Assembly: GCA_028275445.1 (NCBI GenBank)
Contig: JAPWUQ010000001.1
Span: 3,161-67,160 of the forward strand
From: Anaerolineae bacterium
Lineage (GTDB): Bacteria > Chloroflexota > Anaerolineae > JACIWP01
Direction: 5' to 3'
DNA length: 64,000 nucleotides
Under the pieces are notes generated by a model that saw only the letters and a program-made list of their open reading frames with translations, did not search any database and was not told the DNA's origin. Of the stretch, positions 12,065-61,221 are shown piece after piece. The position numbers were made by a program, and so were the translations under genes. The stretch's first letter is position 1; every line of letters begins with the position of its first letter.

Positions 12065-12093
12065 ATTATATCGGGGTGGGGATGGATTGTCAA
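12065..12093 (-). promoter_or_regulatory. Perfect consensus sigma70 promoter (TTGACA-N17-TATAAT) driving the candidate-selenoprotein/FmdB operon
   Basis: The minus strand reads tTTGACAatccatccccaccccgaTATAATagc. Predicted transcription start near 12058, which is 36 nt upstream of the ATG at 12022. Confidence 0.6.
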
Positions 12094-12295
12094 ATTCGGC
12101 GGGCACTGCGCACGGGTTCAACGCCCCAGGCACGGATGGCGCGATATCCAACGACCAGAAGATATAGAGTATATACAAGGTGTGTATGCGCCTCCCCAGC
12201 ACCCACTTCGCAGGGCCGCTTGCCAAAACCTGTACAGCGCGGGTATACTTTGGAGGCAGAAGCGCCGGCGGCACAGCCGGCAGGGAGGGAAAGCG

Positions 12296-14991: not shown

Positions 14992-15026
14992 CAGACACGG
15001 GGACAATATTTTCACAGGAGGACGCC

Positions 15027-16297: not shown

Positions 16298-17602
16298 ATG
16301 CGAGTAGCAATCGCCTACGGACGCGGAGAGCTGGAGATTGACCTGCCGGACGATGTGCCGGTGCAGGTGATCACGCCGGCGGAGACGCCCGGCCTGCCGG
16401 ACGAACGGGCGGCACTGCTGGAGGCTATGCGGCACCCGATCGGCTGTCCGCCCCTGCGCGAGATCATCCCCGCCGGCGCCCGCGTGGCGGTCGTCTTCAG
16501 CGACATCACCCGCCCCATGCCCAATGACCGCGTCCTGCCGGTCCTGCTGGAGGAGATCGAATCTGCCGGCGCCGGGGAAATCATCCTCATCAACGCGCTG
16601 GGCACGCACCGGCCGAATTCCCCGGAGGAGCTGGAGCGCATGCTGGGCCAGGAGGTCGTCTCCCGCTACCCCATCATCCAGCATGACCCCTTCGCCGAGG
16701 GTGAGCTGAAGTATCTGGGGGAAAGCTCCGTCGGACATCCGCTGTGGGTCAACCGCACGTTCGCCGAGGCGGATGTGCGGATATTGACCGGCTTCATCGA
16801 GCCGCACATGTTCGCCGGCTTCAGCGGAGGGCCGAAAGCGGTGCTGCCGGGCATCGCCGGCGAGCGCACCATCTTGCTCAACCACAGCGCGCCCATGCTG
16901 AGCCATCCTCAGGCCACCTGGGGGGTGACCCGCGGCAATCCCATCTGGGAAGAGATGCTGGAGATGGCGGTGCTGGCCAACCCCGATTTCCTGCTGAACG
17001 TGACGCTGAACGCCCGCCGGGAGATCACCGGCGTCTTCGCCGGCGCCCTACGGCCGGCCCATGCGCGCGGCGTGGCCTTTGCGCGCGAACATGCTATGGT
17101 GCCCGTGCGCCAGCGCTTCGATATCGTCATTACCAGCAACGCCGGCTATCCCCTGGATATGAACGTGTATCAGGCGGTAAAGGGGATGTCGGTGGCCGCC
17201 GAGGTGGTCAAGCCGGGCGGACATATCATCGTTGCCGCCGAGTGCTGGGACGGCGTGCCGGACCACGGCGAGTACAAGCGCCTCCTGCATGCCGGCCGCG
17301 ATCCCGCCCATCTGCTGGAGATGATGAGCCGGCCGGATTTCCTGGTGCGCGACCAATGGGAAGTGGCCATTCAGGCCCGCGTGCAGGTGATGGCGCACGT
17401 GTATCTCAAGTGCTCGTATCTTTCGGACGAAGAGGTGCGCAAGATCCACCTGACGCCCTGTCATGATATCGGGGCGCTGGTGCGAGAGCTGGTGCGGGAA
17501 CTGGGGTCTCCCAGCATCTGCGTACTGCCGCAGGGGCCGTTGGTGGTGCCGTACCTGCCCTCATCCGAGACTTCCCATGCCGCGAAGGGGGTGGAGCCAT
17601 GA
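16298..17602 (+). CDS. larA: LarA-like lactate racemase domain protein (nickel-pincer-cofactor-dependent 2-hydroxyacid racemase/epimerase family)
   Basis: 434 aa. N-terminal DUF2088 and LarA core (ARVAVVFSDITRPMP...GTHRPNS...GFIEPHMFAGFSGGPK...). Confidence 0.85.
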   Translation: MRVAIAYGRGELEIDLPDDVPVQVITPAETPGLPDERAALLEAMRHPIGCPPLREIIPAGARVAVVFSDITRPMPNDRVLPVLLEEIESAGAGEIILINALGTHRPNSPEELERMLGQEVVSRYPIIQHDPFAEGELKYLGESSVGHPLWVNRTFAEADVRILTGFIEPHMFAGFSGGPKAVLPGIAGERTILLNHSAPMLSHPQATWGVTRGNPIWEEMLEMAVLANPDFLLNVTLNARREITGVFAGALRPAHARGVAFAREHAMVPVRQRFDIVITSNAGYPLDMNVYQAVKGMSVAAEVVKPGGHIIVAAECWDGVPDHGEYKRLLHAGRDPAHLLEMMSRPDFLVRDQWEVAIQARVQVMAHVYLKCSYLSDEEVRKIHLTPCHDIGALVRELVRELGSPSICVLPQGPLVVPYLPSSETSHAAKGVEP

Positions 17603-49441: not shown

Positions 49442-51610
49442 TCAGCCGCCGAGCTGTGTCCGGCTCGATAAGCCCAGCACATGCTGGAGCGTGCGGACCA
49501 CGTCGGAGATGTCGAAGGGCTTCGCCAGGGCGGCGGCGAACCCCCATTCCTGATAGCGGCAGAAGGCCGGGTCATCCTGCAGGCCGCTGGTGACGATCAA
49601 CCGCGCATCGGGGTCTCGCTGGAGGATTTGCTGGGCGGCCTGCTTGCCGTCCATGCCGGCGCCGGCGATGGCCAGGTCCACGATGACGGCGTGGAACGGC
49701 TGGCCGGCGGCGCGCGCCTTCTCGAAGCGGGCGAGGGCCTCCTCGCCAGTACGGGCGCACTCGACGTAATAGCCCAGATAGCTCAGGGCCAGGCTCAGGG
49801 AGATGCAGAGCGCCTCATCGTCATCCAGCACCAGGACGCGGTGCTGATGTCCTGCCGCTGGACGCTTCATGATAGGCGCGGCGGTGGTAGACGAAGCAGG
49901 CTCGGCCGCCGGCAGGTAGATGTGGAATGTGCTCCCCTGGTTGGGGATAGATTCCACGGTCAAATGCCCGCCGTGACGCTGGACCACGCTGTGCGCCACG
50001 GACAGCCCCAGCCCGGTGCCGTTGGGTCGGGTGGTGAAATAGGGGTCAAAGATGTGCGGCAGGTCGTCGGGCCGAATGCCCGGGCCGTAATCGCGGATGG
50101 CGATGTGGACATACGGGCCGGCCGGCAGTGGCAGGGCGCTGTTCTCCGGCAGAAAGAGATTTTCCGCAACGATGTCCACCACACCCTGCTGGGACATGGC
50201 CTGCACCGCGTTGAGGACCAAGTTGCTGATCGCCTGGTTCATCTGGGTGACATCCATGGAGATGGGCCACAGGTCCGGCGGGAGGGAAAGCCGGCAGGTG
50301 ACCGATGTGCCGCTGGTTGCCAGCTCCGCGGCGCCGGCGATGACGTCGGCGATGTCCCCGGGCCGGCGCTCCGGCTCGCGGCCGCTGGAGAAGAGAAGCA
50401 GTTGCTCCGTGAGCGATTGGGCCAGCTTGATGGCCTGCCGCACGCGCCGGATGGCCTCGCGGGCCTCCGCCGGCTGGTCCAGGCACAGCTCCGCCAGGGA
50501 GACATTGGTCAGGATGGAGGAGAGATAATTGCGGAAGTCGTGGGCGATGCCGCTGGCGACCTTGGCCAGCGAGCCCAGGCGCAGGGCGCGCTGGCGCTCC
50601 TCTTCCATCTTGCGCTGTTCGGTGATATCGCGGAAGACCACGACGGCGCCGAGGGCGCGGCCGGCGTCATCGCGGATGGGAGCGATAGTCTCCAGCACTA
50701 CATGCTCCCGACCATCCTTGCCGACCAGCACACACTCGTAGCGCTCCAGCGGCTTCGGCCGGCCGTCGGCCAGCACGGCCAGCGTCCCAGGCGGCAGGAC
50801 CTCCCGGCTTACCGGATCCAGGGTGTGCATCACCTGGTCCATGGGGAGTCCGAGCGCCTCTTCCTGGCGCCAGCCGGTCAGCTCCTCGGCGATGGGATTC
50901 ATCAACAGCACCCTGCCGTCCACGTCGGAGGTGATGACGCCTTCGCCGATGGAGCGCAGGGTGACGCGCAGGCGCTCTTTCTCTGCGGCCAGCGCCATCT
51001 CGGCCTCTTTGCGGGCGGTGATATCTTGGACATAGACGACCACATAGGGGACGCCGGCCAGATGGACCAGGCGCGTGCCCACTTCCGTCGGGAAGATCGA
51101 ACCGTCTTTGCGTTTGGCTTTCGCCTCCACCATGGCCCAGCCATCTCGAAGCTCCCGCTCAACGAAGGCGGGGAAGGTTTGGGCGATCTCGGGCGGCACC
51201 ACGTCGGCGGCACGCTTCCCGCACAATTCCTCTTTGGTATAGCCCAGCATTTCGGCGGCGCGGTCGTTGCATTCGACGATGGTGCCGTCGAGCAGTTCGA
51301 GGAGGACGCCGGCCGGCGCCGCCTCAAAGAGGGCGCGGTATTTGGCCTCGCTTTCCTCAAGCTGCCGGCGGACGCGCGCACGCGCCTCCCATAGGACAGT
51401 GCTTTCCAGCGCCACCATCAGTCCGAGAAACACCAGGATCCCCCGCAGGACATACTCGTGGGGACGGAGGGAAAGCAGTGACTGCCAGAGGGTCTGCGAG
51501 GTGTAGCGCGCGTCGAGGACAGCATCCGCGAGCCAGATCAGGATGACGCAGGCCAGGCTGAGCAGCATCACCTGGACATAGGTGCGGTACTGTGGTTTCA
51601 TGGTATCCAT
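49442..51610 (-). CDS. Hybrid sensor histidine kinase / response regulator with PAS domains
   Basis: 722 aa. N-terminal transmembrane segment. Two PAS-like blocks. HisKA H-box GIAHDFRNYLS. HATPase. C-terminal receiver (VLVLDDDEALCISL...DLAIAG). Confidence 0.85.
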   Translation of the reverse strand: MDTMKPQYRTYVQVMLLSLACVILIWLADAVLDARYTSQTLWQSLLSLRPHEYVLRGILVFLGLMVALESTVLWEARARVRRQLEESEAKYRALFEAAPAGVLLELLDGTIVECNDRAAEMLGYTKEELCGKRAADVVPPEIAQTFPAFVERELRDGWAMVEAKAKRKDGSIFPTEVGTRLVHLAGVPYVVVYVQDITARKEAEMALAAEKERLRVTLRSIGEGVITSDVDGRVLLMNPIAEELTGWRQEEALGLPMDQVMHTLDPVSREVLPPGTLAVLADGRPKPLERYECVLVGKDGREHVVLETIAPIRDDAGRALGAVVVFRDITEQRKMEEERQRALRLGSLAKVASGIAHDFRNYLSSILTNVSLAELCLDQPAEAREAIRRVRQAIKLAQSLTEQLLLFSSGREPERRPGDIADVIAGAAELATSGTSVTCRLSLPPDLWPISMDVTQMNQAISNLVLNAVQAMSQQGVVDIVAENLFLPENSALPLPAGPYVHIAIRDYGPGIRPDDLPHIFDPYFTTRPNGTGLGLSVAHSVVQRHGGHLTVESIPNQGSTFHIYLPAAEPASSTTAAPIMKRPAAGHQHRVLVLDDDEALCISLSLALSYLGYYVECARTGEEALARFEKARAAGQPFHAVIVDLAIAGAGMDGKQAAQQILQRDPDARLIVTSGLQDDPAFCRYQEWGFAAALAKPFDISDVVRTLQHVLGLSSRTQLGG

Positions 51611-51675
51611 CTACCAGAAAAGTACGTCACCGATCCGCACCTCTCGCGGGGTCTCCTCATCCCACCCACATACCA

Positions 51676-51704
51676 ATTGTAAGCCGATGAGCAGAAAATG
51701 ACAA
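51676..51704 (-). promoter_or_regulatory. Promoter for the hybrid kinase (TTGTCA-N17-TACAAT)
   Basis: The minus strand reads cTTGTCAttttctgctcatcggctTACAATtgg. Confidence 0.45.
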
Positions 51705-51798
51705 GTTGGCGAAAGAGCAGTCAGGTAAATCTGTGTAGCTGTCAGTGTGACAATATAGCTGAAAGATACCCCTCCCTTGACAGCGGGGAGATGCCCCG

Positions 51799-52743
51799 TT
51801 AGCGGTACCGCAGGAATTCGGGGCCGCCGGCATCCAGGCCGGCGCTCACCTGCAAAGCCCCACGTGGGCAGGCGAATATACATTCCATGCAAAAAATGCA
51901 TTCCGTCGAAAGCACCCGCTGGCGCCGGCGCACGTACTCGAACACCTGAATATCCATCGGGCAGGCGCGCAGGCAGGCGCCGCATCCGTCGCATCGGTCG
52001 GCATCGCCGGCGATCTTCAACATGCTCGCGCGCGCCGGCAGTTTCTGGAGCGTGGGGATGGGGCATAGATATTTGCAGAAGGCGCGGTTGTCCCGCAGAA
52101 TGACGGCCAGGGCTATGCCGGCAGTATAGTACAGGGCGTTGCCTGCCAACAGCCAGTGGAGTTCCTCCAATCCCTGCTCGGCCGGCCGATATCCGCGCCC
52201 AAACCAGAGCCACAGCACCAGCCCCAGGCTGAGCGCAAAGTGCAGGTAGCGCAGGAAACCCCACGGCGCCGGCAGTCGCCCGGGCAACCGCCGGCGGAAG
52301 GGGAACAAGTCCAGGATCATGGCCGTCCAGCAGGACCATCCGCACCATCCCCGCTGAAAGATCAACGGCCCGACGATCTTGGCCACCAGGTAATGGATGA
52401 CCGAGCCGGCGAAAGTGCCGGCCAGCAGGTAAAAGAAAAAGCCCTCCAACTGCATGTTCTCGCGCTGGAGAAGGCCCAGGAAGACCAGCATATAGGAACC
52501 CACCAGGAACTGCGCCAGCCGGCGGCCCCAGGGCTTCTGCCGGCGCGGTGCGAGGATGAAGGCCGTCATCCCAAGCCCGACGGCTGAGCCGATGTAACCG
52601 AAGTTGAAGAGGTAAAAGGGCCGGCCGGTGGCGCGCCATAGGGCGATGCCCAGGCCCCAGAAGAGCACCATCATGCCCAGCGGTATGCGCAATGCCGGCC
52701 ACTTCTTTTCCTGCCGGCGCGCCGGCGCAGGTGACCCCGACAT
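51799..52743 (-). CDS. NapH/MauN-like polytopic membrane 4Fe-4S ferredoxin
   Basis: 314 aa. CGWSCW and CKYLCP membrane-embedded Cys motifs. The C-terminal CDGCGACLRACP...CIFCMECIFACP are two ferredoxin-type clusters. Confidence 0.75.
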   Translation of the reverse strand: MSGSPAPARRQEKKWPALRIPLGMMVLFWGLGIALWRATGRPFYLFNFGYIGSAVGLGMTAFILAPRRQKPWGRRLAQFLVGSYMLVFLGLLQRENMQLEGFFFYLLAGTFAGSVIHYLVAKIVGPLIFQRGWCGWSCWTAMILDLFPFRRRLPGRLPAPWGFLRYLHFALSLGLVLWLWFGRGYRPAEQGLEELHWLLAGNALYYTAGIALAVILRDNRAFCKYLCPIPTLQKLPARASMLKIAGDADRCDGCGACLRACPMDIQVFEYVRRRQRVLSTECIFCMECIFACPRGALQVSAGLDAGGPEFLRYR

Positions 52744-52752
52744 GGACTGGAC

Positions 52753-54039
52753 TCACTCCGGCCGCAGGACTGGACAGAGATCGCCGCCGTGGGTGATGAC
52801 CAGCACTTTCGCATGCTCCCCCTGGCGGGCGAAGGCACGCGCCAGGCCGGCCTCGATGCTCTCCGCCGGCGCATGCCCTACTACCGCCAGATCATCATCG
52901 CACAACCCGCTGGTCACCATCTGCACATAGGCCAGCTCATTGACCCGCGCCGCCACGACGGCGGTGTTCAGCCCCGTCCAATCCGTAAAGCCCCGGCGCG
53001 CCGCCTCGTGGCGGATGGCCTTGGAAGGCAGTCCTTGCGCCAGCCGCATGGCCTCCAGATGGTGAGGGTTGGTGGAGATCCCCTCCCAGCACGGGGAGAC
53101 AAGGATGATATCGCCGCCGCGCTTGACCACCAGCTCGGCGGCATAGAGCGCCTTGACGCCCTGCCAGTAGTCCAGGTCCGCAGGATGCGAGGAGATGACC
53201 ACGATGTCCGGCATGACCGGCACCGGCCGCACCCAGATCGGGGTCGCCAGCTCGACGGCGCGCCGGTGCGAGTGATAGGGGTCGCCGGCCACGACGTGCA
53301 CCACTTCTGCCTGGGCATTCAGCACGGTGTTGATCATACAGTCCAGCCGCACCCTCTGGACAATCGCCTCGATCTCCTGGCGGACGGGATTATCCAGCCG
53401 GCCCAGGTGCGGCACCGGGCTGTACATGTTCAGCGCATGGGTATGATGCGTGGTCTCCTCGCCGCAGACGCCCGGCTGGATGATTTTCGCGCCGCCGGAC
53501 CAGCCGGCCAAGCAGTGCGGCACCGTGTTGCCCACCGCCACCACCAAATCAGCCTCCACCACGCGGCGGTTCACCACAATGGGAGTGCCGTTGGGCGTGG
53601 TGCCCAGGTACACCAGGTTGGCCCGGTCCATGGCGTCGTGATTGATGACGGGATAGGCGGATATGACCTGCCGGCCCACCTTGCGCTCGATCTCCGCCGG
53701 CGTCATGGGCCGATGGGTGCCGGTCGCGATGAGAATCTCGATGTGAAGGTTTCTGCCGGCGGCCTCCAGCTCCTCCAGCAAAGGAGGGAGCAGGATGTGC
53801 TGGGGGGTGGGACGGGTCATGTCATCCACGATGATGACGATGCGCTGGCCGGCCCGCACGAGGTCCCGCAGGGGCGGCCGGCCCACCGGCTCCCGCAGGG
53901 CCTGCCGAACGAGGGCGGCGGGATCCGCCGCGGCCGGCACGTCCGCCGGCGTCATGACGCCGAGCAGGTTGCGGCGGGGCAGACGGAAGGAAAGGTTGGT
54001 ATCCCCATACGGCAGTGGAATCACGATGTCATCGGACAT
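52753..54039 (-). CDS. larA: LarA-like lactate racemase domain protein, second paralogue
   Basis: 428 aa. RIVIIVDDMTRPTP...ATGTHRPMT...GNTVPHCLAGWSGGAK resembles the LarA core and the 16298 gene. Confidence 0.8.
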   Translation of the reverse strand: MSDDIVIPLPYGDTNLSFRLPRRNLLGVMTPADVPAAADPAALVRQALREPVGRPPLRDLVRAGQRIVIIVDDMTRPTPQHILLPPLLEELEAAGRNLHIEILIATGTHRPMTPAEIERKVGRQVISAYPVINHDAMDRANLVYLGTTPNGTPIVVNRRVVEADLVVAVGNTVPHCLAGWSGGAKIIQPGVCGEETTHHTHALNMYSPVPHLGRLDNPVRQEIEAIVQRVRLDCMINTVLNAQAEVVHVVAGDPYHSHRRAVELATPIWVRPVPVMPDIVVISSHPADLDYWQGVKALYAAELVVKRGGDIILVSPCWEGISTNPHHLEAMRLAQGLPSKAIRHEAARRGFTDWTGLNTAVVAARVNELAYVQMVTSGLCDDDLAVVGHAPAESIEAGLARAFARQGEHAKVLVITHGGDLCPVLRPE

Positions 54040-54073
54040 GGGGCTTCACCAGGTGTATGGATAGGGGCCGTGC

Positions 54074-55387
54074 TCACAGCCGGCCGATAAAGCGTCCGGG
54101 CGAAAGGATGCCGGCAGGGTCAAAGCGCGCCTTGAGCGCCTGCATCAGCGGCCAATCGGAGCGGGGCGTGCCCCAGACGTCCAGATGCACCTTATGTTCC
54201 GCCGGGATGCGTTCGATGATGGCATGGCCGCCCATCTCGCCGGCCAGCGACTGCAGGGTCGAGGCGATCAGCGAAAGGTGCGCATCCCGCGCCTGCGCCA
54301 TCAGGTACAGCACGCCCAGGCCGGGGCGCGCCAACAGGTTCAGGCTGGCCTGGCCCTCCGCCTCCAGGTGCTGGACGGCGGACCAGAGACTGCCTACTGC
54401 CGAGATGGGCACATACAGGCGCACCACCAGGGGTTCCGGCGAAACGGCCGGCATATCCTGCACCAGCCGGCGGATCTGCTGGCCCTCTGGTTCCTCGTCG
54501 GCCAACTGCTCCACATGGCGGGCCTGCACGCTGGCGGCCATGGCGCTCAGGTCCCGGTACTGCCGCTGGATGACCTCCGGCGTCCCCTCCAACCCGATGA
54601 CGCCCCACAGGGATACGTCCGAGCGGTTCGGCACCACGCGCCCCTGCACCAGGTCGAGGGAAGTGGGCAGGAGGACGGAATCGAGCACCTGCTGGACGAA
54701 GGCAAAGGCATCGCCGGCGCGGTCAAAGCCGATCAGCATCCAGCGGCGCTCGGGCGGCATGGGGAAGAGCCGGCAGGTCACGCGCGTGATGACGCCCAGG
54801 GTGCCGTAGGAACCGATAAAGGCGCGGGTCAGGTCATAGCCGGCGACGTTCTTGACCGTTTTCCCGCCCACATCGATCACCTCACCGTTCGCCAGCGCCA
54901 CCTGCATTCCCAGCACGATATCGCGCGCCGCGCCGTAGCGCAGGCGGGATGGGCCGAAGGCATTGGCGGCCACCACGCCCCCCAGCGTTGCCCGTTCGGC
55001 CGCCGGCGGGTCCAGGGGCAGGAGCTGTCGCTTGCCTTCGACAAGCTCCTGCAGGGCGCGCAGGGTACAGCCGGCGCCGGCGGTCAGCGTCAAATTCGGC
55101 GCGTCATAATCCACAATCTCGTCCAGCGCGCCCAGGTCCAGCGCCACGTCGTAGCGCCGGGGGATATTGCCGATACCCATCTGCGTGCCGCTTCCCCAGG
55201 GGATGACCCCCCAGCCCTCGCGCGAGCACAGCGCCAGCAGTTCCCCCACCTCGCCGGCATCCTGGGGTCGCGCCACGATGGACGGCCGGCGGCCGTCCAC
55301 CTCACATGCGGAACAGAGGTCCGATGTGATCACCTGCTGTGGTGAAAGCACACGTTCCAGCTTGGTCAGCATCTCTTCGGGGTTCAT
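54074..55387 (-). CDS. glcE: FAD-binding oxidase, GlcE-like subunit
   Basis: 437 aa. FAD-binding PCMH domain (ARPQDAGEVGELLALCSREGWGVIPWGSGTQM). Confidence 0.8.
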   Translation of the reverse strand: MNPEEMLTKLERVLSPQQVITSDLCSACEVDGRRPSIVARPQDAGEVGELLALCSREGWGVIPWGSGTQMGIGNIPRRYDVALDLGALDEIVDYDAPNLTLTAGAGCTLRALQELVEGKRQLLPLDPPAAERATLGGVVAANAFGPSRLRYGAARDIVLGMQVALANGEVIDVGGKTVKNVAGYDLTRAFIGSYGTLGVITRVTCRLFPMPPERRWMLIGFDRAGDAFAFVQQVLDSVLLPTSLDLVQGRVVPNRSDVSLWGVIGLEGTPEVIQRQYRDLSAMAASVQARHVEQLADEEPEGQQIRRLVQDMPAVSPEPLVVRLYVPISAVGSLWSAVQHLEAEGQASLNLLARPGLGVLYLMAQARDAHLSLIASTLQSLAGEMGGHAIIERIPAEHKVHLDVWGTPRSDWPLMQALKARFDPAGILSPGRFIGRL

Positions 55388-56802
55388 GATGGAACTCCCA
55401 CGCTGGTTTGCGGCAGGACTTTGCCGGGGTTTAACAGGTCAATCGGGTCAAAGGCTTCTTTCACCCACCGCATGGCCTGGATGGCGGCCGGCGAGGCGAT
55501 CAGCGGCATGCCGTGGATTTTCTCCAGCCCGATGCCGTGTTCGCCGGTGATGGTGCCACCGGCCTCCACACAAATGCGCATAATCTCCGCGCCGGCGCGC
55601 TCCACCAGCTCCAGAATGCCCTCCTCGCGCGGGTCAAAGAGAATGAGCGGGTGCAGGTTGCCGTCGCCGGCGTGGAAGACGTTGCCGATGGGCAGGCCGT
55701 AGCGCTGGCCGATCTCCCGCACCTGGCGCAGGACCTGCGGGAGGGCGGTGCGGGGCACCGTGCCGTCGTTGACCAGGTAGGCCGGCTTGATACGGCCCGT
55801 GGCGCCGAAGGCACCGCGCCGGCCGGCCCACAGCTTATCCCGCTCCTCCGCGCTCCGCGCCACCTGCACCGCCCGGGCGCGGTTGCGCCGGCAGATCTCC
55901 ACGATCTGCTCGGCGATCTCTTCCATGCCGTCCTTCAGACCGTCCAGCTCGATGATGAGCACCGCCTCGGCGTCGGTAGGATAGCCGGCATGGGTGGCCT
56001 CCTCGACGGCGCGCATCATCAACTGGTCCATCATCTCCAGCGTGGCCGGCACAATGCCGGCGGCGATGATGTCGGATACCGCCTGGCTGGCACCGTCCAG
56101 GTCGTCGAAAATGGCGAGCATGGTCTTGATGGCCTCGGGCACATGCAGGAGGCGCACCGTCACCGCGGTAACGACTCCCAGGGTGCCCTCGGAACCGACC
56201 AACAGGCCCACCAGGTCATAGCCGGGCGTGTCAAACGCTTTGCCGCCGAGCTGGATCACCCGGCCGTCGTACAGCACCACTTCCAGTCCCAGCACATGGT
56301 TGGTGGTGACGCCGTACTTCAGGCAGTGGGGGCCGCCGGCGTTCTCCGCCACATTGCCGCCCAGGGTGGAGACCTTCTGGCTGGCCGGGTCCGGCGCGTA
56401 CAGGTAGCCGTACGGCGCAAGGATCTCCTGCAGTGCCAGGTTGTACAGGCCGGCCTCCACCACGGCGCGCTGATTGGGGATATCAATCTCGCGCACCTTT
56501 GTCATGCGCGAAAGGGTCAGCACAATGCCGCCCTGGGAGGCCACAGAGCCTCCGCTCAGGTTAGTGCCGCCCCCGCGCGGGATGACGGGGATGCGGTGGG
56601 CATGTGCCAGCGCCATAATGCGGGAGACCTGCTCCGTGCTCTCCGGGAAAACCACCACATCCGGCCGGCCGGAATGGATGGACGCGTCATAGGCATAGAG
56701 CAGGAGGTCCTCCGGGTCCGTCAGCACATGTTCCGGGCCAACAATTTCCCGCAAGGCATGAAGGATGCTCTCGTCTATCATCGCACTGCTCCCTGCCGGC
56801 AT
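55384..56802 (-). CDS. glcD: FAD-linked oxidase, GlcD-like (glycolate/D-lactate dehydrogenase catalytic subunit)
   Basis: Start at 56802, overlapping the glcF stop by ATGA. VVFPESTEQVSRIMALAHAHRIPVIPRGGGTNLSGG is the FAD-binding motif. C-terminal FAD-oxidase_C domain. Confidence 0.85.
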   Translation of the reverse strand: MPAGSSAMIDESILHALREIVGPEHVLTDPEDLLLYAYDASIHSGRPDVVVFPESTEQVSRIMALAHAHRIPVIPRGGGTNLSGGSVASQGGIVLTLSRMTKVREIDIPNQRAVVEAGLYNLALQEILAPYGYLYAPDPASQKVSTLGGNVAENAGGPHCLKYGVTTNHVLGLEVVLYDGRVIQLGGKAFDTPGYDLVGLLVGSEGTLGVVTAVTVRLLHVPEAIKTMLAIFDDLDGASQAVSDIIAAGIVPATLEMMDQLMMRAVEEATHAGYPTDAEAVLIIELDGLKDGMEEIAEQIVEICRRNRARAVQVARSAEERDKLWAGRRGAFGATGRIKPAYLVNDGTVPRTALPQVLRQVREIGQRYGLPIGNVFHAGDGNLHPLILFDPREEGILELVERAGAEIMRICVEAGGTITGEHGIGLEKIHGMPLIASPAAIQAMRWVKEAFDPIDLLNPGKVLPQTSVGVPS

Positions 56803-57974
56803 CAGGCCGGCTCCTCCAGGGTGGACAGCAGTAGCTCCGCCACATCCATGACGGGCATGCGCAGGCGCTGACGCCGTGCGGCCATGCCCAGGGTGCGCTG
56901 GCACTGCTGGCAGGCCGTCACGATCACCTCTGCCTTGACCCGCTGGGCCTGGGCCAGCCGGCGGCCGGCGATCTGCGCTGAAAGCTCCGGGTCAATGGAT
57001 TCCAGGTTCCCGCCGCCCCCACAGCAGGTGGCCAGGGCGTGATGGGTGGACATTTCCACCAGCTCCACCCCTGGCAGGGAAGTGATGACATGGCGCGGGG
57101 CATCGTAGACGCCGCTCTTGCGGCCCAGGTCGCAGGGGTCATGATAGGTCACGCGCAGGGGGCCGGCAGTGTCCCCGGCCCGGCGCAGTGCCGGCGGGTG
57201 GGCCGGCACAATGCGCCCTTCGTCTATCAGCGCCGCCAGCAGTTCCGTGGCATGCACCACCTGGAAGGAGGCCGGCGGATACTTCAGCTTCCAGGTATGG
57301 TAGCAGGAGGGACAGGAAGTGATCAGCCAGCGTGCCCCCAATGCTTCCACGGCGCGGATATTATGCTCGATGAGCGGCTCCACATCGCGGCCGGCGGAGA
57401 TGAGGGGATAGCCACAGCACCATTCCTCGCCGCCCAGGGTGGTAAAGGTGACGCCGGCGCGCTGGAGCACCTGGACGAAGGCCTGGGGGATGCTGTAGAC
57501 CATGGGATACAGGCTGGCGACGCACCCGACGAAGAAGACCGCTTCCGCCGGCTGGCCGGCGGGCACCTCCAGGTTCATGTTCTCCTGCCACAAGGTGCGG
57601 TGCGTATTGTCCTCGCCGGCGATGTTGTGGCTGGTGAACACGCGCTCCTCCAGCGCCCGGAGCGGGGCCGGCAGGGCATCCACATGGGCCAGCCAGCGGC
57701 GCGCCCCCTCGAAGATCTCGTCAGTGCGGACACCGCTCAGGCAGGTTTGCTGGCACAGCCGGCAGTCCAGACAGCGGTACACGTAATAGCTCAGCTTGGG
57801 GCTGAGGTCCAGCCGGCCGTTCAGCACCGAGAGCAGTAGCTGAATCTTGCCGCGCGCCACCGCCGATTCCATGCGCAGGGCATCGTACGTCGGGCATGCC
57901 GCCTGACAGAAGCCGCATCGCGTACAGCGGAGCATTTCATCCATATAGGGGGCGAGCAGTTCCTTGAAGTCCAC
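56802..57974 (-). CDS. glcF: GlcF-like iron-sulfur subunit (2x4Fe-4S plus CCG domains)
   Basis: GTG at 57974 with GGAGGTG RBS. The Arg-rich 5' extension of the listed ORF was rejected. CTRCGFCQAACP and CLDCRLCQQTC ferredoxin motifs. Two CCG (CxxCG...C) cysteine-rich domains. Confidence 0.8.
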   Translation of the reverse strand: MDFKELLAPYMDEMLRCTRCGFCQAACPTYDALRMESAVARGKIQLLLSVLNGRLDLSPKLSYYVYRCLDCRLCQQTCLSGVRTDEIFEGARRWLAHVDALPAPLRALEERVFTSHNIAGEDNTHRTLWQENMNLEVPAGQPAEAVFFVGCVASLYPMVYSIPQAFVQVLQRAGVTFTTLGGEEWCCGYPLISAGRDVEPLIEHNIRAVEALGARWLITSCPSCYHTWKLKYPPASFQVVHATELLAALIDEGRIVPAHPPALRRAGDTAGPLRVTYHDPCDLGRKSGVYDAPRHVITSLPGVELVEMSTHHALATCCGGGGNLESIDPELSAQIAGRRLAQAQRVKAEVIVTACQQCQRTLGMAARRQRLRMPVMDVAELLLSTLEEPA

Positions 57975-58005
57975 CCCGCACCTCCGTTGACAGGTCCTTG
58001 GGATG

Positions 58006-58041
58006 CACAGCCCCAGCCTGTGGTTGGGGGCTGGGGCTGTG
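58006..58041. other. 13-bp perfect inverted repeat (CACAGCCCCAGCC...GGCTGGGGCTGTG) between the aminotransferase and glcF
   Basis: Stable stem-loop in the 75-nt intergenic gap. No U-run. Possible processing site or attenuator. Confidence 0.3.
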
Positions 58042-58048
58042 TGATGTC

Positions 58049-59209
58049 TCAGCTCAGGAACACCTTCTGGGCGGCGGCCACGCCGGCGCCGTGCTCGAAG
58101 GCGTAGCCGCTGGCGGCCAGGGCGCTCTCCAGCGCGCCCATCACCGCCAGGATATCGGCCGGCGTGTGGGCGCCCATGTGTCCGATGCGGAAATACTGCG
58201 CCCGGCAGGCGGGATGCAGTCCGCCGGCCACGATGACGCCGGCGGCTCCGATCTTCCCCACCAGCGAGGCATCCACCCCTTCGGGATAATACGGCGCGGT
58301 CATCGTATGGGCCCGGCAGTGCTCGCGCGGCAGTTGGCGCAGGCCGAGCGCCGTGACGCCGGCCTTGCAGGCGTCGCTGAGCTTGCGGTGCCGGGCAATG
58401 CGTGCCTCCATGCCCTCGGCCAGGATCTGTCCCAGGCTGACGTTGAGGGCGGCGACGAGGTTGACCGCCGGCGTGCCAAAGTAGGCCGGCTTGCGCGCCT
58501 CGTAGGCCTCCATGATGGGCAGCCAATTGCCGAAATCGGCGTAGTAATTGCAGACGGGTGTCTTGCGCTTGCGCCAGGCTTCCAGGGCGCGCGGGCCGGC
58601 CACCACCAGCGCCAACCCCGGTGGGGCGCCAACGGCCTTCTGGGAAGCGGTCAGCGCCAGGTCCACCCCCCATTCGTCCATGCGCAGTTCCTCGCCGGCG
58701 ACCGAGCAGACGCCGTCCACCACGGCCAGCGCGCCGTATTGGCGTGCCAACGCCGCCACGCCCTTCACGTCCGCCAGCACGCCGGTGGAGGTATCCACCT
58801 GGGTGACCGTGACGAGCTTATAGGAATGGGATCGCAGGGCCGCTTCCACCTGCTCCAGGGCCGGCATGTCGCCGACCTCAGCCCGCACATGGTCCACCTG
58901 CGCGCCGTAGCGCTCCATCAGGGCGCCGAAGCGGTCGCCGAAGTAACCCGTGTTCACCACCAGCGCCCGATCGCCCGGCTCGATCAGGTTGGCGCCGGCC
59001 ATGTCCATGGCCAGGGTGCCGGTGCCGGCGACGATAAAGGGCTGGCCGCTGGGGGACATGAACACCTCGCGCATGCGTTCCAGCGCCTGGCCGAACTGCT
59101 CCATAAACCAGGGGTCCAGGTGGCTGGTGGTGGGTTTCCCCATCTCCCGCAGTACCGCCGGGTCGAACTCGATCGGGCCGGGAATCATCAGCAGTTTTCG
59201 ACCTTTCAT
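58049..59209 (-). CDS. Class-V aminotransferase of the serine-glyoxylate / alanine-glyoxylate type
   Basis: Start MKGRKLLMIPGP with GGAGAG RBS. PLP-lysine region (TASQKAVGAPPGL). AGXT-family layout. Confidence 0.85.
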   Translation of the reverse strand: MKGRKLLMIPGPIEFDPAVLREMGKPTTSHLDPWFMEQFGQALERMREVFMSPSGQPFIVAGTGTLAMDMAGANLIEPGDRALVVNTGYFGDRFGALMERYGAQVDHVRAEVGDMPALEQVEAALRSHSYKLVTVTQVDTSTGVLADVKGVAALARQYGALAVVDGVCSVAGEELRMDEWGVDLALTASQKAVGAPPGLALVVAGPRALEAWRKRKTPVCNYYADFGNWLPIMEAYEARKPAYFGTPAVNLVAALNVSLGQILAEGMEARIARHRKLSDACKAGVTALGLRQLPREHCRAHTMTAPYYPEGVDASLVGKIGAAGVIVAGGLHPACRAQYFRIGHMGAHTPADILAVMGALESALAASGYAFEHGAGVAAAQKVFLS

Positions 59210-59258
59210 GCGCCTCTCTCCTAAAGAAAATGGGGGCATACCCGCCGGCCGGCTGTTT

Positions 59259-59510
59259 TCATCCCCCGCCGATGGTCGGCGGCAGGATGTCAATCACATC
59301 GCCATCTTGAACCACATAATCCGGGGGCAGGGGTTTGGCCTCTTTCAGATAGCGGTTTGCCCAGCGCGGGGGGATGCCGATGCGCTCGCGAATCTGATCT
59401 ATCGTCGTACCTTCCTCGACCTGCAGGGTGAGGTGGCCGTCGTAGCCGTGTTCCTGAGCGAACTTGCGCAGAATGGAATAGAGCCGGATGTGCACGGTTG
59501 CCGGCGACAT
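59259..59510 (-). CDS. MoaD/ThiS-family ubiquitin-like sulfur-carrier protein (ends in Gly-Gly)
   Basis: 83 aa with a beta-grasp pattern. C-terminal ...LPPTIGGG. Confidence 0.65.
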   Translation of the reverse strand: MSPATVHIRLYSILRKFAQEHGYDGHLTLQVEEGTTIDQIRERIGIPPRWANRYLKEAKPLPPDYVVQDGDVIDILPPTIGGG

Positions 59511-59591
59511 CGTACCTCCTTGATCCAGCGCGTGAAACTCGGGATAATTATAACCCGGTTTTGCCGCGCCGCCAAACCGTGCGAAGTCAGC

Positions 59592-60728
59592 TCATGGCCG
59601 GTAATGCGCCGCCTCATCGAGCATGGCCCAGATGTTTTCCGGCGGGACATCGTCCTGGATGTTGTGCACCGCCGCCAGCACGTACCCGCCCGAGTGGTTC
59701 ATCACATCAATGGTATGGCGGACGGCGGCCCGCACCTCTTCCGGGGTGCCGCGCGGCAGGAGCCGTTGGGTGTCAATGCCGCCCCAGAAGGCCATGCGGC
59801 CGGCAAAGCGGGCTTTCAGGTTCTCCGGCGACATGCCGGCGGCGGACACCTGCATTGGGTTCAGCGCATCCACCCCGATCTCGATGTAATCCTCCACCAG
59901 ATCCACAATGCTCCCGCAGGCATGCACGACGATCTTGGCGTCCGTCCAGCGCCGGATCAGCTCCATATAGCGGCGGTGAAAGGGCTTTACCATTTTGCGG
60001 TACAGCTCCAGGCTTAAGAGCGGCCCCGTCTGGATGCCCATGTCGTCGGAGACCATGACCACGTCCACATAAGGGCCGACTTCCTGAAGGAAGCGCTCCA
60101 GCCGGCGGAACTGGATCTGCGCCACCTTCTCCAGCAGTGCCAGGGCAAAGGATGGGTCCAGCAGGAGGTCCATCAGGAAGCGCGCCGTGCCCCTCAGCCA
60201 GCAGGCGCGGTCGAAGAGGGTGGTGTCCAGCGTCGAGGCGCAGACGGCGTAATCAGTATCCTCATGGAGCTGACGCGCTTTCTCGCGCAGGCCGGCGTAG
60301 CGCCCCTCATCCTCCACATCCGGCCCCTCGAAGCGCTCGACATCCGCCAGCGTGGCCTCGGCCAGGGGATGGGCGATCATGTCGAACTGCGGCCAGCCGG
60401 CCGGCCGGCGGTAGGTGATGCCCCATTCATCCACAAAGGTGGATTCATCCAGCCAGCGCGTGCGCGAGCGCGCCGGCGGGTTGATGAACAGCGGCCGGGT
60501 ATCCACGGGCAGGAGCCGCAGGACAGCTTCGTCCATCTCCACGATCTCGAAGGCCAGGTTGATGACCTTGGGAGAGGTAATGGGCACTCCCAGAAACTCG
60601 GCCAGGCGCAGATATGCACCGGTGCAAATGGTGCTGTTGGGCGTGCCGCCGAGGTCAATGGGCACGCGGTCCACTTCCTGGTGGTTGAGCGCCGCCAGCA
60701 CCCTTTGGCGTGGGGTCATGCTCGCCAT
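59592..60728 (-). CDS. Uroporphyrinogen-decarboxylase-family protein (URO-D / MtaA-like)
   Basis: Start MASMTPRQRVLAALNHQEVDRVPID with AGGAGGGG RBS. URO-D-fold blocks (PIDLGGTP, VHACG, NPMQ). Confidence 0.75.
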   Translation of the reverse strand: MASMTPRQRVLAALNHQEVDRVPIDLGGTPNSTICTGAYLRLAEFLGVPITSPKVINLAFEIVEMDEAVLRLLPVDTRPLFINPPARSRTRWLDESTFVDEWGITYRRPAGWPQFDMIAHPLAEATLADVERFEGPDVEDEGRYAGLREKARQLHEDTDYAVCASTLDTTLFDRACWLRGTARFLMDLLLDPSFALALLEKVAQIQFRRLERFLQEVGPYVDVVMVSDDMGIQTGPLLSLELYRKMVKPFHRRYMELIRRWTDAKIVVHACGSIVDLVEDYIEIGVDALNPMQVSAAGMSPENLKARFAGRMAFWGGIDTQRLLPRGTPEEVRAAVRHTIDVMNHSGGYVLAAVHNIQDDVPPENIWAMLDEAAHYRP

Positions 60729-60922
60729 ATTCCCCTCCTGTCCCAGAAGTGTTATGATGATCTGACCATCCGAACGGAATGTACCACAACGTCGCCGGCG
60801 TGTCAAAGCCGGGCGAGGCCGAGAGGCCCTCACCCACGGATGGGACATGGGCCGGCTTTCCCGGCCCCCCGCTCGATCGGTTGAGGGGAAGGTACGGTCC
60901 TTTGTGCGGCAAGTCGGGGGAA

Positions 60923-60951
60923 TTGAACCTCTGCATTTCTTGTGCTATACT
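60923..60951 (+). promoter_or_regulatory. Promoter (TTGAAC-N17-TATACT) for the Trm112-like gene
   Basis: aTTGAACctctgcatttcttgtgcTATACTacg. Confidence 0.5.
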
Positions 60952-60994
60952 ACGGCCGGCAAATACCAATGCCCAGCCGCAAGGAGGCCATCTC

Positions 60995-61216
60995 ATGATT
61001 GACCAGGAACTGCTCTCCATCCTGCGCTGTCCCCACTGCGCCCCGCAGGGTCAGGAGGGACTGCTGGAGCTGGTGAAAGAGTGCTGGCTGGTGTGCCAGG
61101 AGTGCGGCCGCAAGTACCCGATCATTGATGATATCCCGTTCATGCTGGAGGAGATCGGGAACCGCTGGAGCACGACGCCGGCGGATCAACTGCCCGTGCC
61201 TCCGCCCAAGGGTTGA
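60995..61216 (+). CDS. Trm112-like / UPF0434-family small zinc-finger protein
   Basis: 73 aa. AAGGAGG RBS. LLSILRCPHC...LVCQECGRKYPIIDDIPFML is the Trm112 pattern. Confidence 0.7.
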   Translation: MIDQELLSILRCPHCAPQGQEGLLELVKECWLVCQECGRKYPIIDDIPFMLEEIGNRWSTTPADQLPVPPPKG

Positions 61217-61221
61217 CGAAC

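What the first reader, a model, noticed from the sequence alone, without database searches (positions are those of the whole stretch)
51799..59209. Operon coupling a LarA-like racemase to GlcD/E/F-type FAD/Fe-S oxidase subunits, a NapH-like membrane ferredoxin and a glyoxylate-type aminotransferase
On the minus strand, in order: a class-V (serine/alanine-glyoxylate type) aminotransferase; glcF, glcD and glcE homologues, with an ATGA overlap between glcF and glcD; a LarA-like protein; and a polytopic NapH/MauN-like ferredoxin. GlcDEF-type enzymes oxidise D-2-hydroxyacids (glycolate, D-lactate). LarA-family enzymes interconvert 2-hydroxyacid enantiomers using a nickel-pincer cofactor. The arrangement therefore suggests a route that converts an L-2-hydroxyacid (L-lactate or a related acid) to the D-form for oxidation. 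Electrons would pass via GlcF to a membrane ferredoxin or quinone, and the resulting 2-oxoacid or glyoxylate would be transaminated. A second LarA paralogue sits at 16298-17602. No larB, larC or larE cofactor-biosynthesis genes are in this window. A hybrid PAS histidine kinase lies immediately downstream with its own promoter.
Basis: inference. Interest (0 to 1): 0.6.

Follow-up and report, generated by a model that had tools for sequence, protein, structure and literature searches.

The report
Racemase-linked hydroxyacid oxidase gene cluster
An uncultured Anaerolineae bacterium has added a nickel-cofactor 2-hydroxyacid racemase of unknown specificity to a conserved module made of a glycolate-oxidase-like enzyme and a glyoxylate-type aminotransferase; this varies a design already known from lactate-utilisation clusters and is not a new kind of system.

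Summary
The genes are real and lie at the stated coordinates. One detail is wrong: the ATGA overlap is glcD/glcE, while glcF/glcD share one base (TGATG).

The conserved unit is thiS-like, AGXT-type aminotransferase, GlcF-like, GlcD, GlcE. It occurs in four Anaerolineae lineages, and only two of them carry the LarA homologue after glcE. The NapH-like ferredoxin sits there only in this genome; its 66-68% identical relatives elsewhere lie in unrelated contexts.

The operon's LarA homologue keeps every catalytic and nickel-pincer-binding residue. It still reaches no curated lactate- or malate-racemase threshold. Its specificity positions read C, L, T, G, and it falls in Desguin's group 23, function unknown. 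Its wider family sits among acid-sugar genes. The second paralogue (16298-17602) is the canonical lactate racemase. No larB/C/E genes are in the window.

Pairing a racemase with a D-specific FAD dehydrogenase is already documented: lct clusters, GlcD-GlpC-LarA operons, and the neighbour table of Desguin 2020. The L-lactate substrate and the electron route through the NapH-like protein are not supported. Verdict: a new variant of a known kind, of modest interest.

The parts
59547..59575 (-). Promoter-like site (TTGGCG-17-TATAAT) 37 nt upstream of the thiS-like gene. It is the candidate operon promoter.
   Evidence: 10 of 12 consensus matches. The region has 8 such sites against 2.1 expected from shuffles. 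This is a consensus match only.
59259..59510 (-). ThiS/MoaD-like beta-grasp protein of 83 aa ending in Gly-Gly(-Gly). It is a constant first gene of the conserved module.
   Evidence: Ub-Mut7C 5.5e-07, ThiS 1.1e-05; the C-terminal GG is conserved in L004, L081 and L166; the gene always lies directly upstream of the aminotransferase.
58049..59209 (-). Class-V aminotransferase of the AGXT type (alanine/serine:glyoxylate/pyruvate), 386 aa.
   Evidence: Aminotran_5 4e-28; best solved relatives are 2bkw alanine-glyoxylate aminotransferase (8e-76) and 3zrp serine-pyruvate aminotransferase (1.5e-70); no NCBIfam equivalog is reached (BhcA 225 against 650). An SQK motif is visible in the translation.
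58006..58041 (-). Perfect 13-bp GC-rich hairpin in the 74-nt gap between the aminotransferase and glcF-like genes. It has no U tract.
   Evidence: the 86-nt region folds at -43.8 kcal/mol, z -3.5; the stem is conserved in L004 but absent from L081 and L166.
56802..57974 (-). GlcF-like Fe-S subunit of 390 aa with a GTG start, two 4Fe-4S motifs and two CCG domains.
   Evidence: CCG 4e-31, Fer4_8 5e-11. GlcF PRK11274 scores only 101 against a cutoff of 333; LdhH and TfrB score higher; about 25% identity to GlcF of 67 canonical GlcDEF loci.
55384..56802 (-). GlcD, the FAD-binding catalytic subunit of a D-2-hydroxyacid (glycolate or D-lactate type) dehydrogenase, 472 aa.
   Evidence: FAD_binding_4 plus FAD-oxidase_C; TIGR00387 531 against 568; best solved relative is 9qgz glycolate oxidase (2.5e-91), followed by D-lactate dehydrogenases. 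TGATG junction with glcF.
54074..55387 (-). GlcE-like second FAD_binding_4 subunit, 437 aa. It has an ATGA overlap with glcD.
   Evidence: FAD_binding_4 1.4e-29; GlcE PRK11282 161 against 284. ATGA junction.
52753..54039 (-). LarA homologue ('LarAh', 428 aa). It is predicted to be a nickel-pincer-nucleotide-dependent 2-hydroxyacid racemase or epimerase of Desguin group 23, specificity unknown.
   Evidence: Lar_N 7e-67, LarA_C 6e-10; best NCBIfam hit is MAR LarAH6, 344 against 500; LarA 311 against 460. D73, R76, H109, H175, K185, H201, Q293 and K296 are conserved; the pocket positions read C176, L177, T355, G356; the closest 2020 group member is Moth_0729 of group 23 (39% identity, 278 bits).
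51799..52743 (-). Polytopic Fer4_5-type (NapH-like) membrane ferredoxin of 314 aa, 9 bp downstream of larAh. It is a lineage-specific neighbour.
   Evidence: It is absent at this position in L004, L081, L166 and L172. Orthologues in other Anaerolineae sit in unrelated contexts.
59592..60728 (-). URO-D-family protein of 378 aa, upstream on the same strand with its own promoter-like site at 60806-60778. Its membership of the unit is uncertain.
   Evidence: URO-D 1.6e-26; promoter-like site; conserved in L004. URO-D-family genes also lie near LarAh relatives in L085, L006, L007 and L002 and before the module in L166.
49442..51610 (-). Hybrid PAS histidine kinase with receiver domain, separated by 188 nt and preceded by a promoter-like site at 51704-51676. 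It is probably a separate transcription unit.
   Evidence: It follows larAh directly in L004, but L081 has an unrelated ATPase there.
16298..17602 (+). Second LarA paralogue, the canonical lactate-racemase type. It is 36% identical to the operon copy.
   Evidence: NF033504 scores 485 against a cutoff of 460; signature M,F,W,E with all catalytic and NPN residues present; best solved relatives are lactate racemases; 36% identity to LarAh.

Best explanation
The same-strand genes from 59510 down to 51799 probably form one transcript in an uncultured Anaerolineae bacterium. In order they are: thiS-like, AGXT-type aminotransferase, glcF-like, glcD, glcE-like, larA homologue and NapH-like ferredoxin.

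The conserved core is thiS-like, aminotransferase, GlcF', GlcD, GlcE. GlcD most likely oxidises glycolate or another D-2-hydroxyacid at its FAD. Electrons leave through the GlcF-like Fe-S/CCG subunit. The aminotransferase then converts the 2-oxoacid product to an amino acid: glyoxylate to glycine, pyruvate to alanine, or hydroxypyruvate to serine.

The LarA homologue is an accessory gained by two of the four known lineages of this module. It is an intact nickel-pincer-dependent enzyme of group 23, function unknown. It would invert C2 of a chiral 2-hydroxyacid, so that the L-form or the C2 epimer becomes a substrate of the D-specific dehydrogenase. This is the same logic as LctF with LctD in lactate-utilisation clusters.

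The substrate is not established. The pocket residues and the relatives' neighbourhoods point away from a dedicated lactate racemase. They point toward a somewhat larger neutral hydroxyacid such as glycerate, 2-hydroxybutyrate or a four-carbon sugar acid. Lactate remains possible. The NapH-like ferredoxin is a recent neighbour and not a conserved partner.

Shown: gene content, order, spacing, residue conservation and distribution across lineages. Inferred: co-transcription, substrates and direction of flux.
For: - Gene identities.
- Tight spacing and overlaps, with no terminator-like site at any of the junctions between these genes; the only minus-strand match lies inside glcD. A promoter-like site lies before thiS-like.
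- The order thiS-like, AT, GlcF, GlcD, GlcE, LarAh recurs in L004 (LarAh 91% identical). It also recurs in the much more divergent L081 (LarAh 69-70%, GlcE 51%, GlcF 63%).
- The core without LarAh occurs in L166 and L172/L173.
- LarAh and 39 relatives keep D72, R75, H108, H174, K184, H200, Q295 and K298 equivalents invariant. Desguin 2020 (PMC7583248) defines these as the catalytic and NPN-binding residues.
- LarAh fails the lactate and malate racemase cutoffs. Its pocket positions C,L,T,G fit none of the published signatures (PMC11770544).
- It is closest to group 23, 'unknown function'.
- In 73 loci, family neighbours are DUF1537 acid-sugar kinase plus PdxA (18-19 loci), IlvD/Edd dehydratase (13), TRAP transporters (12) and 2-Hacid_dh (9).
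- A canonical LarA exists elsewhere in the window.
- Precedent for racemase plus D-specific GlcD-type dehydrogenase: PMC8914356, PMC5910564, and Table S1 of PMC7583248.
Against: - The association is sporadic. Among 78 other genome loci with LarAh relatives, only L004 has GlcFDE or the aminotransferase within 10 kb.
- LarAh relatives of 50-66% identity sit in unrelated contexts: L176, L083, L085, L002, L005, L008, L014.
- None of 80 canonical GlcDEF loci carries a LarA.
- Glycolate, the most likely GlcD substrate, is achiral, so the racemase has no role in the core reaction.
- No transporter or substrate-specific regulator lies in the cluster.
- No riboswitch was found.
- No larBCE genes are in the window.
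- Co-transcription is inferred from spacing alone.
Confidence: 0.5

Rival explanations
1. There is no functional coupling. The LarA homologue is an acid-sugar or hydroxyacid epimerase working in a separate pathway. It happens to have landed downstream of a glycolate-to-glycine module (GlcF'DE plus AGXT aminotransferase), and any co-transcription is incidental.
For: - The module exists without LarAh in L166 and L172/L173.
- The LarAh clade exists without the module in many places.
- The family's dominant neighbours are acid-sugar genes.
- Glycolate is achiral.
- The neighbouring NapH-like gene shows that unrelated genes have been inserted at this spot in this lineage.
Against: - The same order and close spacing after glcE recur in two lineages. 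One is as divergent as 51% GlcE and 69-70% LarAh identity, which is hard to explain by chance.
- GlcD-type and GlpC/GlcF-type neighbours recur around several LarA groups.
- The 34-bp gap has no promoter-like or terminator-like match.
Confidence: 0.25
2. LarAh is an L-/D-lactate racemase feeding D-lactate to GlcDEF. Electrons pass from GlcF to the NapH-like membrane ferredoxin or quinone, and pyruvate or glyoxylate is transaminated.
For: - E. coli-type GlcDEF oxidises D-lactate as well as glycolate (established knowledge).
- The solved relatives ranking next after glycolate oxidase for GlcD are D-lactate dehydrogenases, including LctD.
- lct clusters pair a lactate racemase with such an enzyme.
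- Even poorly matched LarA homologues show some lactate activity (LarAH66 and LarAH52 in PMC11770544).
- The NapH-like gene is only 9 bp downstream.
Against: - LarAh fails the curated LarA cutoff (311 against 460) and lacks the F,F,W,E/Q pocket.
- A bona fide LarA is encoded elsewhere in the window.
- No lactate permease domain turned up in any of the window ORFs scanned against Pfam.
- The NapH-like gene is absent from this position in all four other occurrences of the module, and its orthologues lie in unrelated contexts.
Confidence: 0.15
3. LarAh does not act as a racemase here. It uses its nickel-pincer cofactor for net or intermolecular hydride transfer, for example a 2-hydroxyacid:2-oxoacid transhydrogenation with glyoxylate, pyruvate or hydroxypyruvate. 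This would link it chemically to the oxidase and the aminotransferase.
For: - NPN chemistry passes through a bound 2-oxoacid intermediate.
- An unrelated NPMN enzyme family catalyses intermolecular hydride shuttling (PMC13524815).
- Desguin 2020 raises other hydride-mediated reactions for atypical LarAHs.
Against: Both catalytic histidines and K298 are present, which is the configuration of true racemases and epimerases. There is no direct evidence for this reading.
Confidence: 0.05

Closest known systems
lct lactate-utilisation clusters (LctD, a GlcD-like D-lactate dehydrogenase; EtfAB; LctF lactate racemase; LctE permease) of Acetobacterium woodii, Anaerobutyricum and Anaerostipes
   Same: A LarA-family racemase is encoded beside a D-specific GlcD-family flavoenzyme, so that both enantiomers can be oxidised. 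Strains lacking lctF use only D-lactate (PMC8914356).
   Different: Here there is no EtfAB, no lactate permease and no LutR-type regulator. Electron transfer goes through a GlcE plus GlcF-like pair. An AGXT aminotransferase and a ThiS-like gene are present. The racemase is not of the lactate-racemase group.
GlcD-GlpC-LarA operons (for example Methanosaeta concilii and several Desulfobacterota), and the COG0277/COG0247 neighbours of LarAH groups 1, 4 and 6 in Desguin et al. 2020
   Same: LarA homologue, GlcD-type FAD dehydrogenase and CCG-domain Fe-S protein lie in one cluster (PMC5910564; PMC7583248 Table S1).
   Different: Those LarAHs belong to lactate or putative malate racemase groups. This one is group 23, for which the 2020 survey found no recurrent neighbour. 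This cluster also adds GlcE, an aminotransferase and a ThiS-like gene.
Escherichia coli GlcDEF glycolate oxidase
   Same: The three-subunit architecture is the same: an FAD subunit, a second FAD_binding_4 subunit, and an Fe-S subunit with two CCG domains. The best solved relative of GlcD is a glycolate oxidase.
   Different: Gene order is F-D-E, not D-E-F. All three subunits fall below the NCBIfam equivalog cutoffs (531/568, 161/284, 101/333). GlcF is only about 25% identical to canonical GlcF. No malate synthase or glycolate permease lies alongside.
LarA of Lactiplantibacillus plantarum (5HUQ) and the LarA superfamily
   Same: Lar_N and LarA_C domains are present. D72, R75, H108, H174, K184, H200, Q295 and K298 equivalents are all present.
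   Different: Tyr294 is replaced by Trp. The pocket F175/F176/W358/T359 is replaced by C/L/T/G. No larBCE genes are adjacent. The protein is 36% identical to the canonical LarA in the same window.
NapH/MauN quinol-dehydrogenase ferredoxins
   Same: Polytopic membrane domain, a CX3CP motif and two C-terminal 4Fe-4S motifs.
   Different: TIGR02163 scores 57 bits against a cutoff of 213. No NapG, NapA or NapB is nearby. Orthologues are stand-alone genes in unrelated contexts.

Membership tests
LarA superfamily (NPN-dependent 2-hydroxyacid racemases/epimerases) | Lar_N plus LarA_C domain architecture | tested here: met
   Lar_N 7.1e-67 and LarA_C 6.1e-10. E 5e-68 to Mar2 (6d6z) and 1.7e-49 to LarA (5huq).
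LarA superfamily (NPN-dependent 2-hydroxyacid racemases/epimerases) | Catalytic residues D72, H108, H174, K298 and NPN-binding residues R75, K184, H200 (L. plantarum numbering; PMC7583248) | tested here: met
   pairwise alignment to 5huq. D73, R76, H109, H175, K185, H201 and K296 are invariant in 40 and in about 115 relatives.
LarA superfamily (NPN-dependent 2-hydroxyacid racemases/epimerases) | larB, larC and larE cofactor-biosynthesis genes in the same genome | not testable with these tools
   None was found among about 50 ORFs of the 64-kb window. The rest of the genome is not available.
Lactate racemase sensu stricto (NCBIfam NF033504; LAR group) | Score at or above the curated cutoff of 460 bits | tested here: not met
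   310.6 bits for the operon copy; 485.1 bits for the paralogue at 16298-17602, which does pass.
Lactate racemase sensu stricto (NCBIfam NF033504; LAR group) | Pocket signature F, F, W, E/Q at positions 175, 176, 358, 359 (PMC11770544) | tested here: not met
   C176, L177, T355, G356. The mapping agrees with the published alignment of group 23 member Moth_0729. The paralogue has M, F, W, E.
Malate racemase (NCBIfam NF052593 / NF052595) | Score at or above the cutoff (500 / 462), and H/Q plus K at positions 358 and 359 | tested here: not met
   343.7 and 278.5 bits. T and G at those positions, with no positive charge.
LarAH group 23 of Desguin et al. 2020 (function unknown) | Closest similarity to group members, and the W-Q-x-K motif in place of Y-Q-x-K | tested here: met
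   Moth_0729 278 bits at 39% identity, against 163-191 bits for the group 6, 9, 10 and 17 members compared; the WQ..K motif is shared. Only seven reference sequences were compared; no full tree was built.
GlcDEF glycolate oxidase (E. coli type) | Three subunits with the GlcD, GlcE and GlcF domain architectures | tested here: met
   FAD_binding_4 plus FAD-oxidase_C; FAD_binding_4 with a weak C-terminal domain; Fer4_8 plus two CCG.
GlcDEF glycolate oxidase (E. coli type) | NCBIfam equivalog cutoffs for GlcD, GlcE and GlcF | tested here: not met
   GlcD 531.4 against 567.9 (TIGR00387) and 502 against 897; GlcE 161 against 284; GlcF 101 against 333.
GlcDEF glycolate oxidase (E. coli type) | Oxidation of glycolate (and D-lactate) | not testable with these tools
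   Indirect evidence only: the best solved relative of GlcD is named glycolate oxidase (9qgz, 2.5e-91).
NapH/MauN family ferredoxin | Family score (TIGR02163 cutoff 213) and association with a periplasmic reductase system | tested here: not met
   57.4 bits. No Nap or Mau genes are in the window. Orthologue contexts are unrelated. Only the architecture matches.
AGXT-type class-V aminotransferase (alanine/serine:glyoxylate/pyruvate) | Aminotran_5 fold, with closest relatives among characterised AGXT, SPT and SGAT enzymes and not among cysteine desulfurases | tested here: met
   top hits are 2bkw, 3zrp, 1vjo and 6pk1. No NCBIfam equivalog is reached, so the exact amino donor and acceptor are open.
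lct-type racemase-coupled lactate dehydrogenase cluster | EtfAB and lactate permease encoded alongside the GlcD-like enzyme and the racemase | tested here: not met
   No ETF or lactate-permease domain appears in any of the window ORFs scanned.

The most novel reading that the evidence does not exclude
Group 23 LarA homologues may be a new specificity class of nickel-pincer enzymes acting on short polyhydroxy acids such as glycerate or the four-carbon threonate/erythronate pair. This fits their frequent DUF1537-kinase-PdxA-LarAH operons. In this Anaerolineae lineage one of them would then have been wired to a GlcDEF-type dehydrogenase and an AGXT aminotransferase. Together they would form an undescribed route from an L- or epimeric hydroxyacid to an amino acid, for example L-glycerate to D-glycerate to hydroxypyruvate to serine. 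The conserved ThiS-like Gly-Gly protein would be an unexplained extra component.
Probability: 0.15. Interest if true: 0.55.

Novelty: new variant of a known kind. Interest (0 to 1): 0.3.

Why it matters
If the coupling is real, the racemase-plus-D-specific-dehydrogenase design known from lactate utilisation extends to two new things. One is a three-subunit GlcDEF-type enzyme with a built-in transamination step. The other is a LarA group (group 23) for which no function or conserved context has been reported.

The more useful outcome is a set of testable leads on group 23. Its relatives sit beside four-carbon acid-sugar kinases and PdxA-type dehydrogenases. That suggests concrete candidate substrates for an orphan branch of the nickel-pincer enzyme family.

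For genome annotation, the practical point is that the two LarA paralogues of this organism should not both be called lactate racemase. Nor should the adjacent NapH-like gene be read as part of the pathway.

Tried and rejected
- Regulatory RNA that would name the substrate: Rfam found nothing in the window at gathering thresholds, and nothing in 51500-61300 at E up to 1.
- Canonical GlcDEF loci as a source of synteny: 80 metagenome loci retrieved with GlcE are at most 41% identical, are ordered D-E-F or D-F-E, and none carries LarA. They are a different branch and do not inform this module.
- Upstream genes in L081 as evidence for a glycolate/glycerate pathway: the TPP enzyme is not glyoxylate carboligase (161 bits against a cutoff of 791). 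The enolase-superfamily gene is of the OSBS/N-succinylamino-acid racemase type. Rejected as evidence.
- The L168 cluster looked like support for glycerate. It holds a GlcF-like gene, a MOFRL glycerate kinase, a LarA homologue and an SHMT-GCV_T fusion. Its LarA homologue is only 33% identical to LarAh and is a different group. Kept only as a side note.
- The NapH-like protein as a conserved partner: rejected after three orthologue contexts.
- The histidine kinase as a dedicated regulator: it is adjacent only in the window and L004. L081 has an unrelated ATPase there.
- The hairpin between the aminotransferase and glcF as a conserved element: it is present only in the closest relative.
- Matching the pocket signature by text search in the 2020 supplement failed. 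A motif search succeeded instead.
- Structure prediction was not run. Sequence homology to solved LarA enzymes is already unambiguous, and the tools give no residue-level superposition.

Full report
**What is there**

They have the codon-position GC pattern of real genes in this 65% GC sequence.

Pfam and NCBIfam scans give these assignments:
- 58049-59209: class-V aminotransferase. Its closest solved relatives are yeast alanine:glyoxylate aminotransferase and a serine-pyruvate aminotransferase.
- 56802-57974: an Fe-S protein with two 4Fe-4S motifs and two CCG domains.
- 55384-56802: a GlcD-type flavoprotein. Its best solved relative is named glycolate oxidase, followed by D-lactate dehydrogenases.
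- 54074-55387: a GlcE-like second FAD_binding_4 subunit.
- 52753-54039: a protein with Lar_N and LarA_C domains.
- 51799-52743: a polytopic ferredoxin with NapH-like cysteine motifs.

One is an 83-residue ThiS-like protein (59259-59510). The other is a URO-D-family protein (59592-60728).

The junctions are tight. glcF and glcD share one base (TGATG). glcD and glcE overlap by ATGA. glcE and larA are 34 bp apart, and larA and the ferredoxin are 9 bp apart.

Promoter-like sites fall before the URO-D gene, before the thiS-like gene and before the histidine kinase. No terminator-like site lies at any junction between the cluster's genes; the only minus-strand match is inside glcD. No known regulatory RNA is present.

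No LarB, LarC or LarE domain occurs in about 50 window ORFs.

**Source**

The same DNA occurs on a metagenome contig. The nearest species representative is an uncultured Anaerolineae MAG (L004), whose LarA homologue is 91% identical.

**The two LarA paralogues differ**

The copy at 16298-17602 passes the curated lactate-racemase model (485 against 460 bits). It carries M,F,W,E at the four specificity positions, close to the published lactate-racemase signature F,F,W,E/Q.

The operon copy, here called LarAh, is only 36% identical to it. It reaches no curated model: malate racemase 344 against 500, lactate racemase 311 against 460.

LarAh nevertheless keeps every residue that Desguin et al. define as catalytic (D72, H108, H174, K298) or NPN-binding (R75, K184, H200). 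These residues are invariant across its relatives. It is very probably an active nickel-pincer enzyme.

Its specificity positions read C176, L177, T355, G356, with Trp replacing Tyr294. This fits none of the published lactate, malate, 2-hydroxyglutarate or gluconate signatures. The absence of a positive charge argues against a dicarboxylate substrate. The small residues at the W358/T359 positions suggest room for more than a methyl side chain; this last point is inference.

I compared LarAh with sequences printed in the 2020 supplement. It is closest to group 23 (Moth_0729, 278 bits), a group listed as 'unknown function' with no recurrent neighbours.

**How conserved the arrangement is**

I fetched 79 genome loci encoding LarAh relatives and searched each for the operon's other proteins. 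Only L004 has the aminotransferase and GlcFDE nearby, and L004 lacks the NapH-like gene.

A more distant metagenome relative, L081, repeats the order thiS-like, aminotransferase, GlcF, GlcD, GlcE, LarAh. There LarAh is 69-70% identical, GlcE 51% and GlcF 63%.

Starting from the GlcF-like protein, two further lineages carry the core without any LarA homologue: L166 and L172/L173.

So the conserved unit is thiS-like, aminotransferase, GlcF', GlcD, GlcE. LarAh is an accessory in two of four lineages.

LarAh relatives of 50-66% identity also occur in quite different settings. These include sugar isomerase and kinase genes, GntR/FCD regulators, glycosyltransferases, transketolase and an FAA hydrolase.

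Canonical GlcDEF loci are a different branch. They are ordered D-E-F or D-F-E, their GlcF is about 25% identical to this one, and none carries LarA.

**The NapH-like ferredoxin**

This protein belongs to an abundant, well conserved family. Three orthologues at 66-68% identity sit beside UppS, HAD, Rce1-like and methyltransferase genes. None sits beside GlcDEF or LarA. Its adjacency here is lineage-specific, so the proposed electron route through it has no comparative support.

**What the wider LarAh family does**

I clustered the neighbours of 73 loci. The most frequent are:
- PdxA-family dehydrogenases: 19 loci
- DUF1537-type acid-sugar kinases: 18 loci
- IlvD/Edd dehydratases: 13 loci
- TRAP transporter subunits: 12 loci
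- D-2-hydroxyacid dehydrogenases: 9 loci
- altronate/galactarate-type dehydratases, GntP permeases, PanB and URO-D-family genes at lower counts

These assignments were confirmed by Pfam for the main clusters. No family member tested reaches a curated LarA or MAR model. The family therefore lives in acid-sugar and hydroxyacid catabolism, not lactate metabolism. Position 176 varies between sub-clades (C, N, P, H, R), so specificities probably differ within the family.

**What is already known**

Desguin et al. 2020 listed COG0277 (GlcD-like) and COG0247 (GlcF/GlpC-like) among the recurrent neighbours of LarA groups 1, 4 and 6. They listed a class-V aminotransferase beside group 9.

The lct clusters of acetogens and gut butyrate producers pair the GlcD-like LctD with the racemase LctF. 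Strains lacking lctF use only D-lactate. GlcD-GlpC-LarA operons have been noted in Methanosaeta and Desulfobacterota.

What differs here is:
- the three-subunit GlcDEF-like enzyme in F-D-E order
- the AGXT aminotransferase
- the ThiS-like gene
- a racemase from an uncharacterised group

**Most likely mechanism**

The core oxidises glycolate or another D-2-hydroxyacid and transaminates the product. LarAh, where present, inverts C2 of a chiral 2-hydroxyacid so that the otherwise unusable stereoisomer enters the D-specific dehydrogenase.

I put 0.5 on this general reading. Within it, lactate is the less likely substrate and a larger neutral hydroxyacid (glycerate, 2-hydroxybutyrate or a tetronate) the more likely one.

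The alternatives are:
- The main rival (0.25): the adjacency is not functional.
- A non-racemase hydride-transfer role: 0.05.

**Limits**

- Co-transcription, substrates and cofactor supply are all inferred.
- The genome outside the window could not be searched.
- The group 23 assignment rests on seven reference sequences, not a full tree.
- The mapping of the C-terminal pocket positions rests on sequence alignments. These agree with each other and with the published alignment of a group 23 member, but they are not structural superpositions.

Noticed in passing
window 59259-59510 (-); also L004 4525-4779, L081 2434-2685, L166 7460-7711: An 83-aa ThiS/MoaD-like beta-grasp protein with a conserved C-terminal Gly-Gly always lies directly upstream of the AGXT-type aminotransferase in this module. 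A sulfur-carrier-like or ubiquitin-like protein has no obvious role in hydroxyacid oxidation.
   Followed up: partly
loci L011, L020, L021, L026, L027, L029, L030, L038, L042, L056, L057, L064, L078 and others: LarAh relatives (37-46% identical; group 23 of Desguin 2020, 'unknown function') frequently sit in operons of DUF1537 acid-sugar kinase, PdxA-type dehydrogenase, LarAH and a GntP or TRAP transporter. This suggests a nickel-pincer C2-epimerase for four-carbon sugar acids. No paper in the searchable library holds both sets of terms.
   Followed up: partly
loci L043, L069, L036, L035, L056: Another sub-clade of the same family lies in PanB-IlvD-LarAH arrangements. This hints at a 2,3-dihydroxyisovalerate or pantoate-type substrate.
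   Followed up: no
window 37187-38848 and 38864-40531 (+): Two tandem HlyD-family membrane-fusion genes are 97% identical over 540 residues and are followed by a MacB/FtsX permease. This is either a recent tandem duplication or an assembly artefact.
   Followed up: partly
window 11771-13522 (+): A 583-aa DUF362 protein lies 2.8 kb upstream of the canonical LarA paralogue. DUF362 is the family used as outgroup of the LarA superfamily in PMC11770544, and it overlaps Lar_N hits in some relatives.
   Followed up: no
window 58006-58041 (-): A perfect 13-bp GC-rich hairpin without a U tract lies between the aminotransferase and glcF-like genes. The 86-nt region containing it folds at -43.8 kcal/mol (z -3.5). 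The stem is conserved in the 91% relative L004 but not in L081 or L166.
   Followed up: yes
L168 9001-16720: In another Chloroflexota contig, a GlcF-like protein (57% identical) is followed by a MOFRL-type glycerate kinase, a different LarA homologue (33% identical to LarAh) and a 1237-aa SHMT-GCV_T fusion. This looks like a separate glycerate/serine/glycine cluster with its own LarA homologue.
   Followed up: partly
window 59592-60728 (-); L085 9284-10543; L006 8526-9551; L166 6117-7244: URO-D-family proteins, with weak MtaA/CmuA-like scores, recur next to LarAh relatives and next to the aminotransferase-GlcFDE module. They are too divergent from one another to be clear orthologues, and their function is unknown.
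   Followed up: partly
window 8769-9716 (+) and 14988-15953 (+): A 2-hydroxy-3-oxopropionate (tartronate semialdehyde) reductase-like gene scores 309 bits against a cutoff of 341. A xylose-isomerase-like TIM-barrel gene lies near the canonical LarA. These are possible further hydroxyacid-metabolism genes in the window.
   Followed up: no
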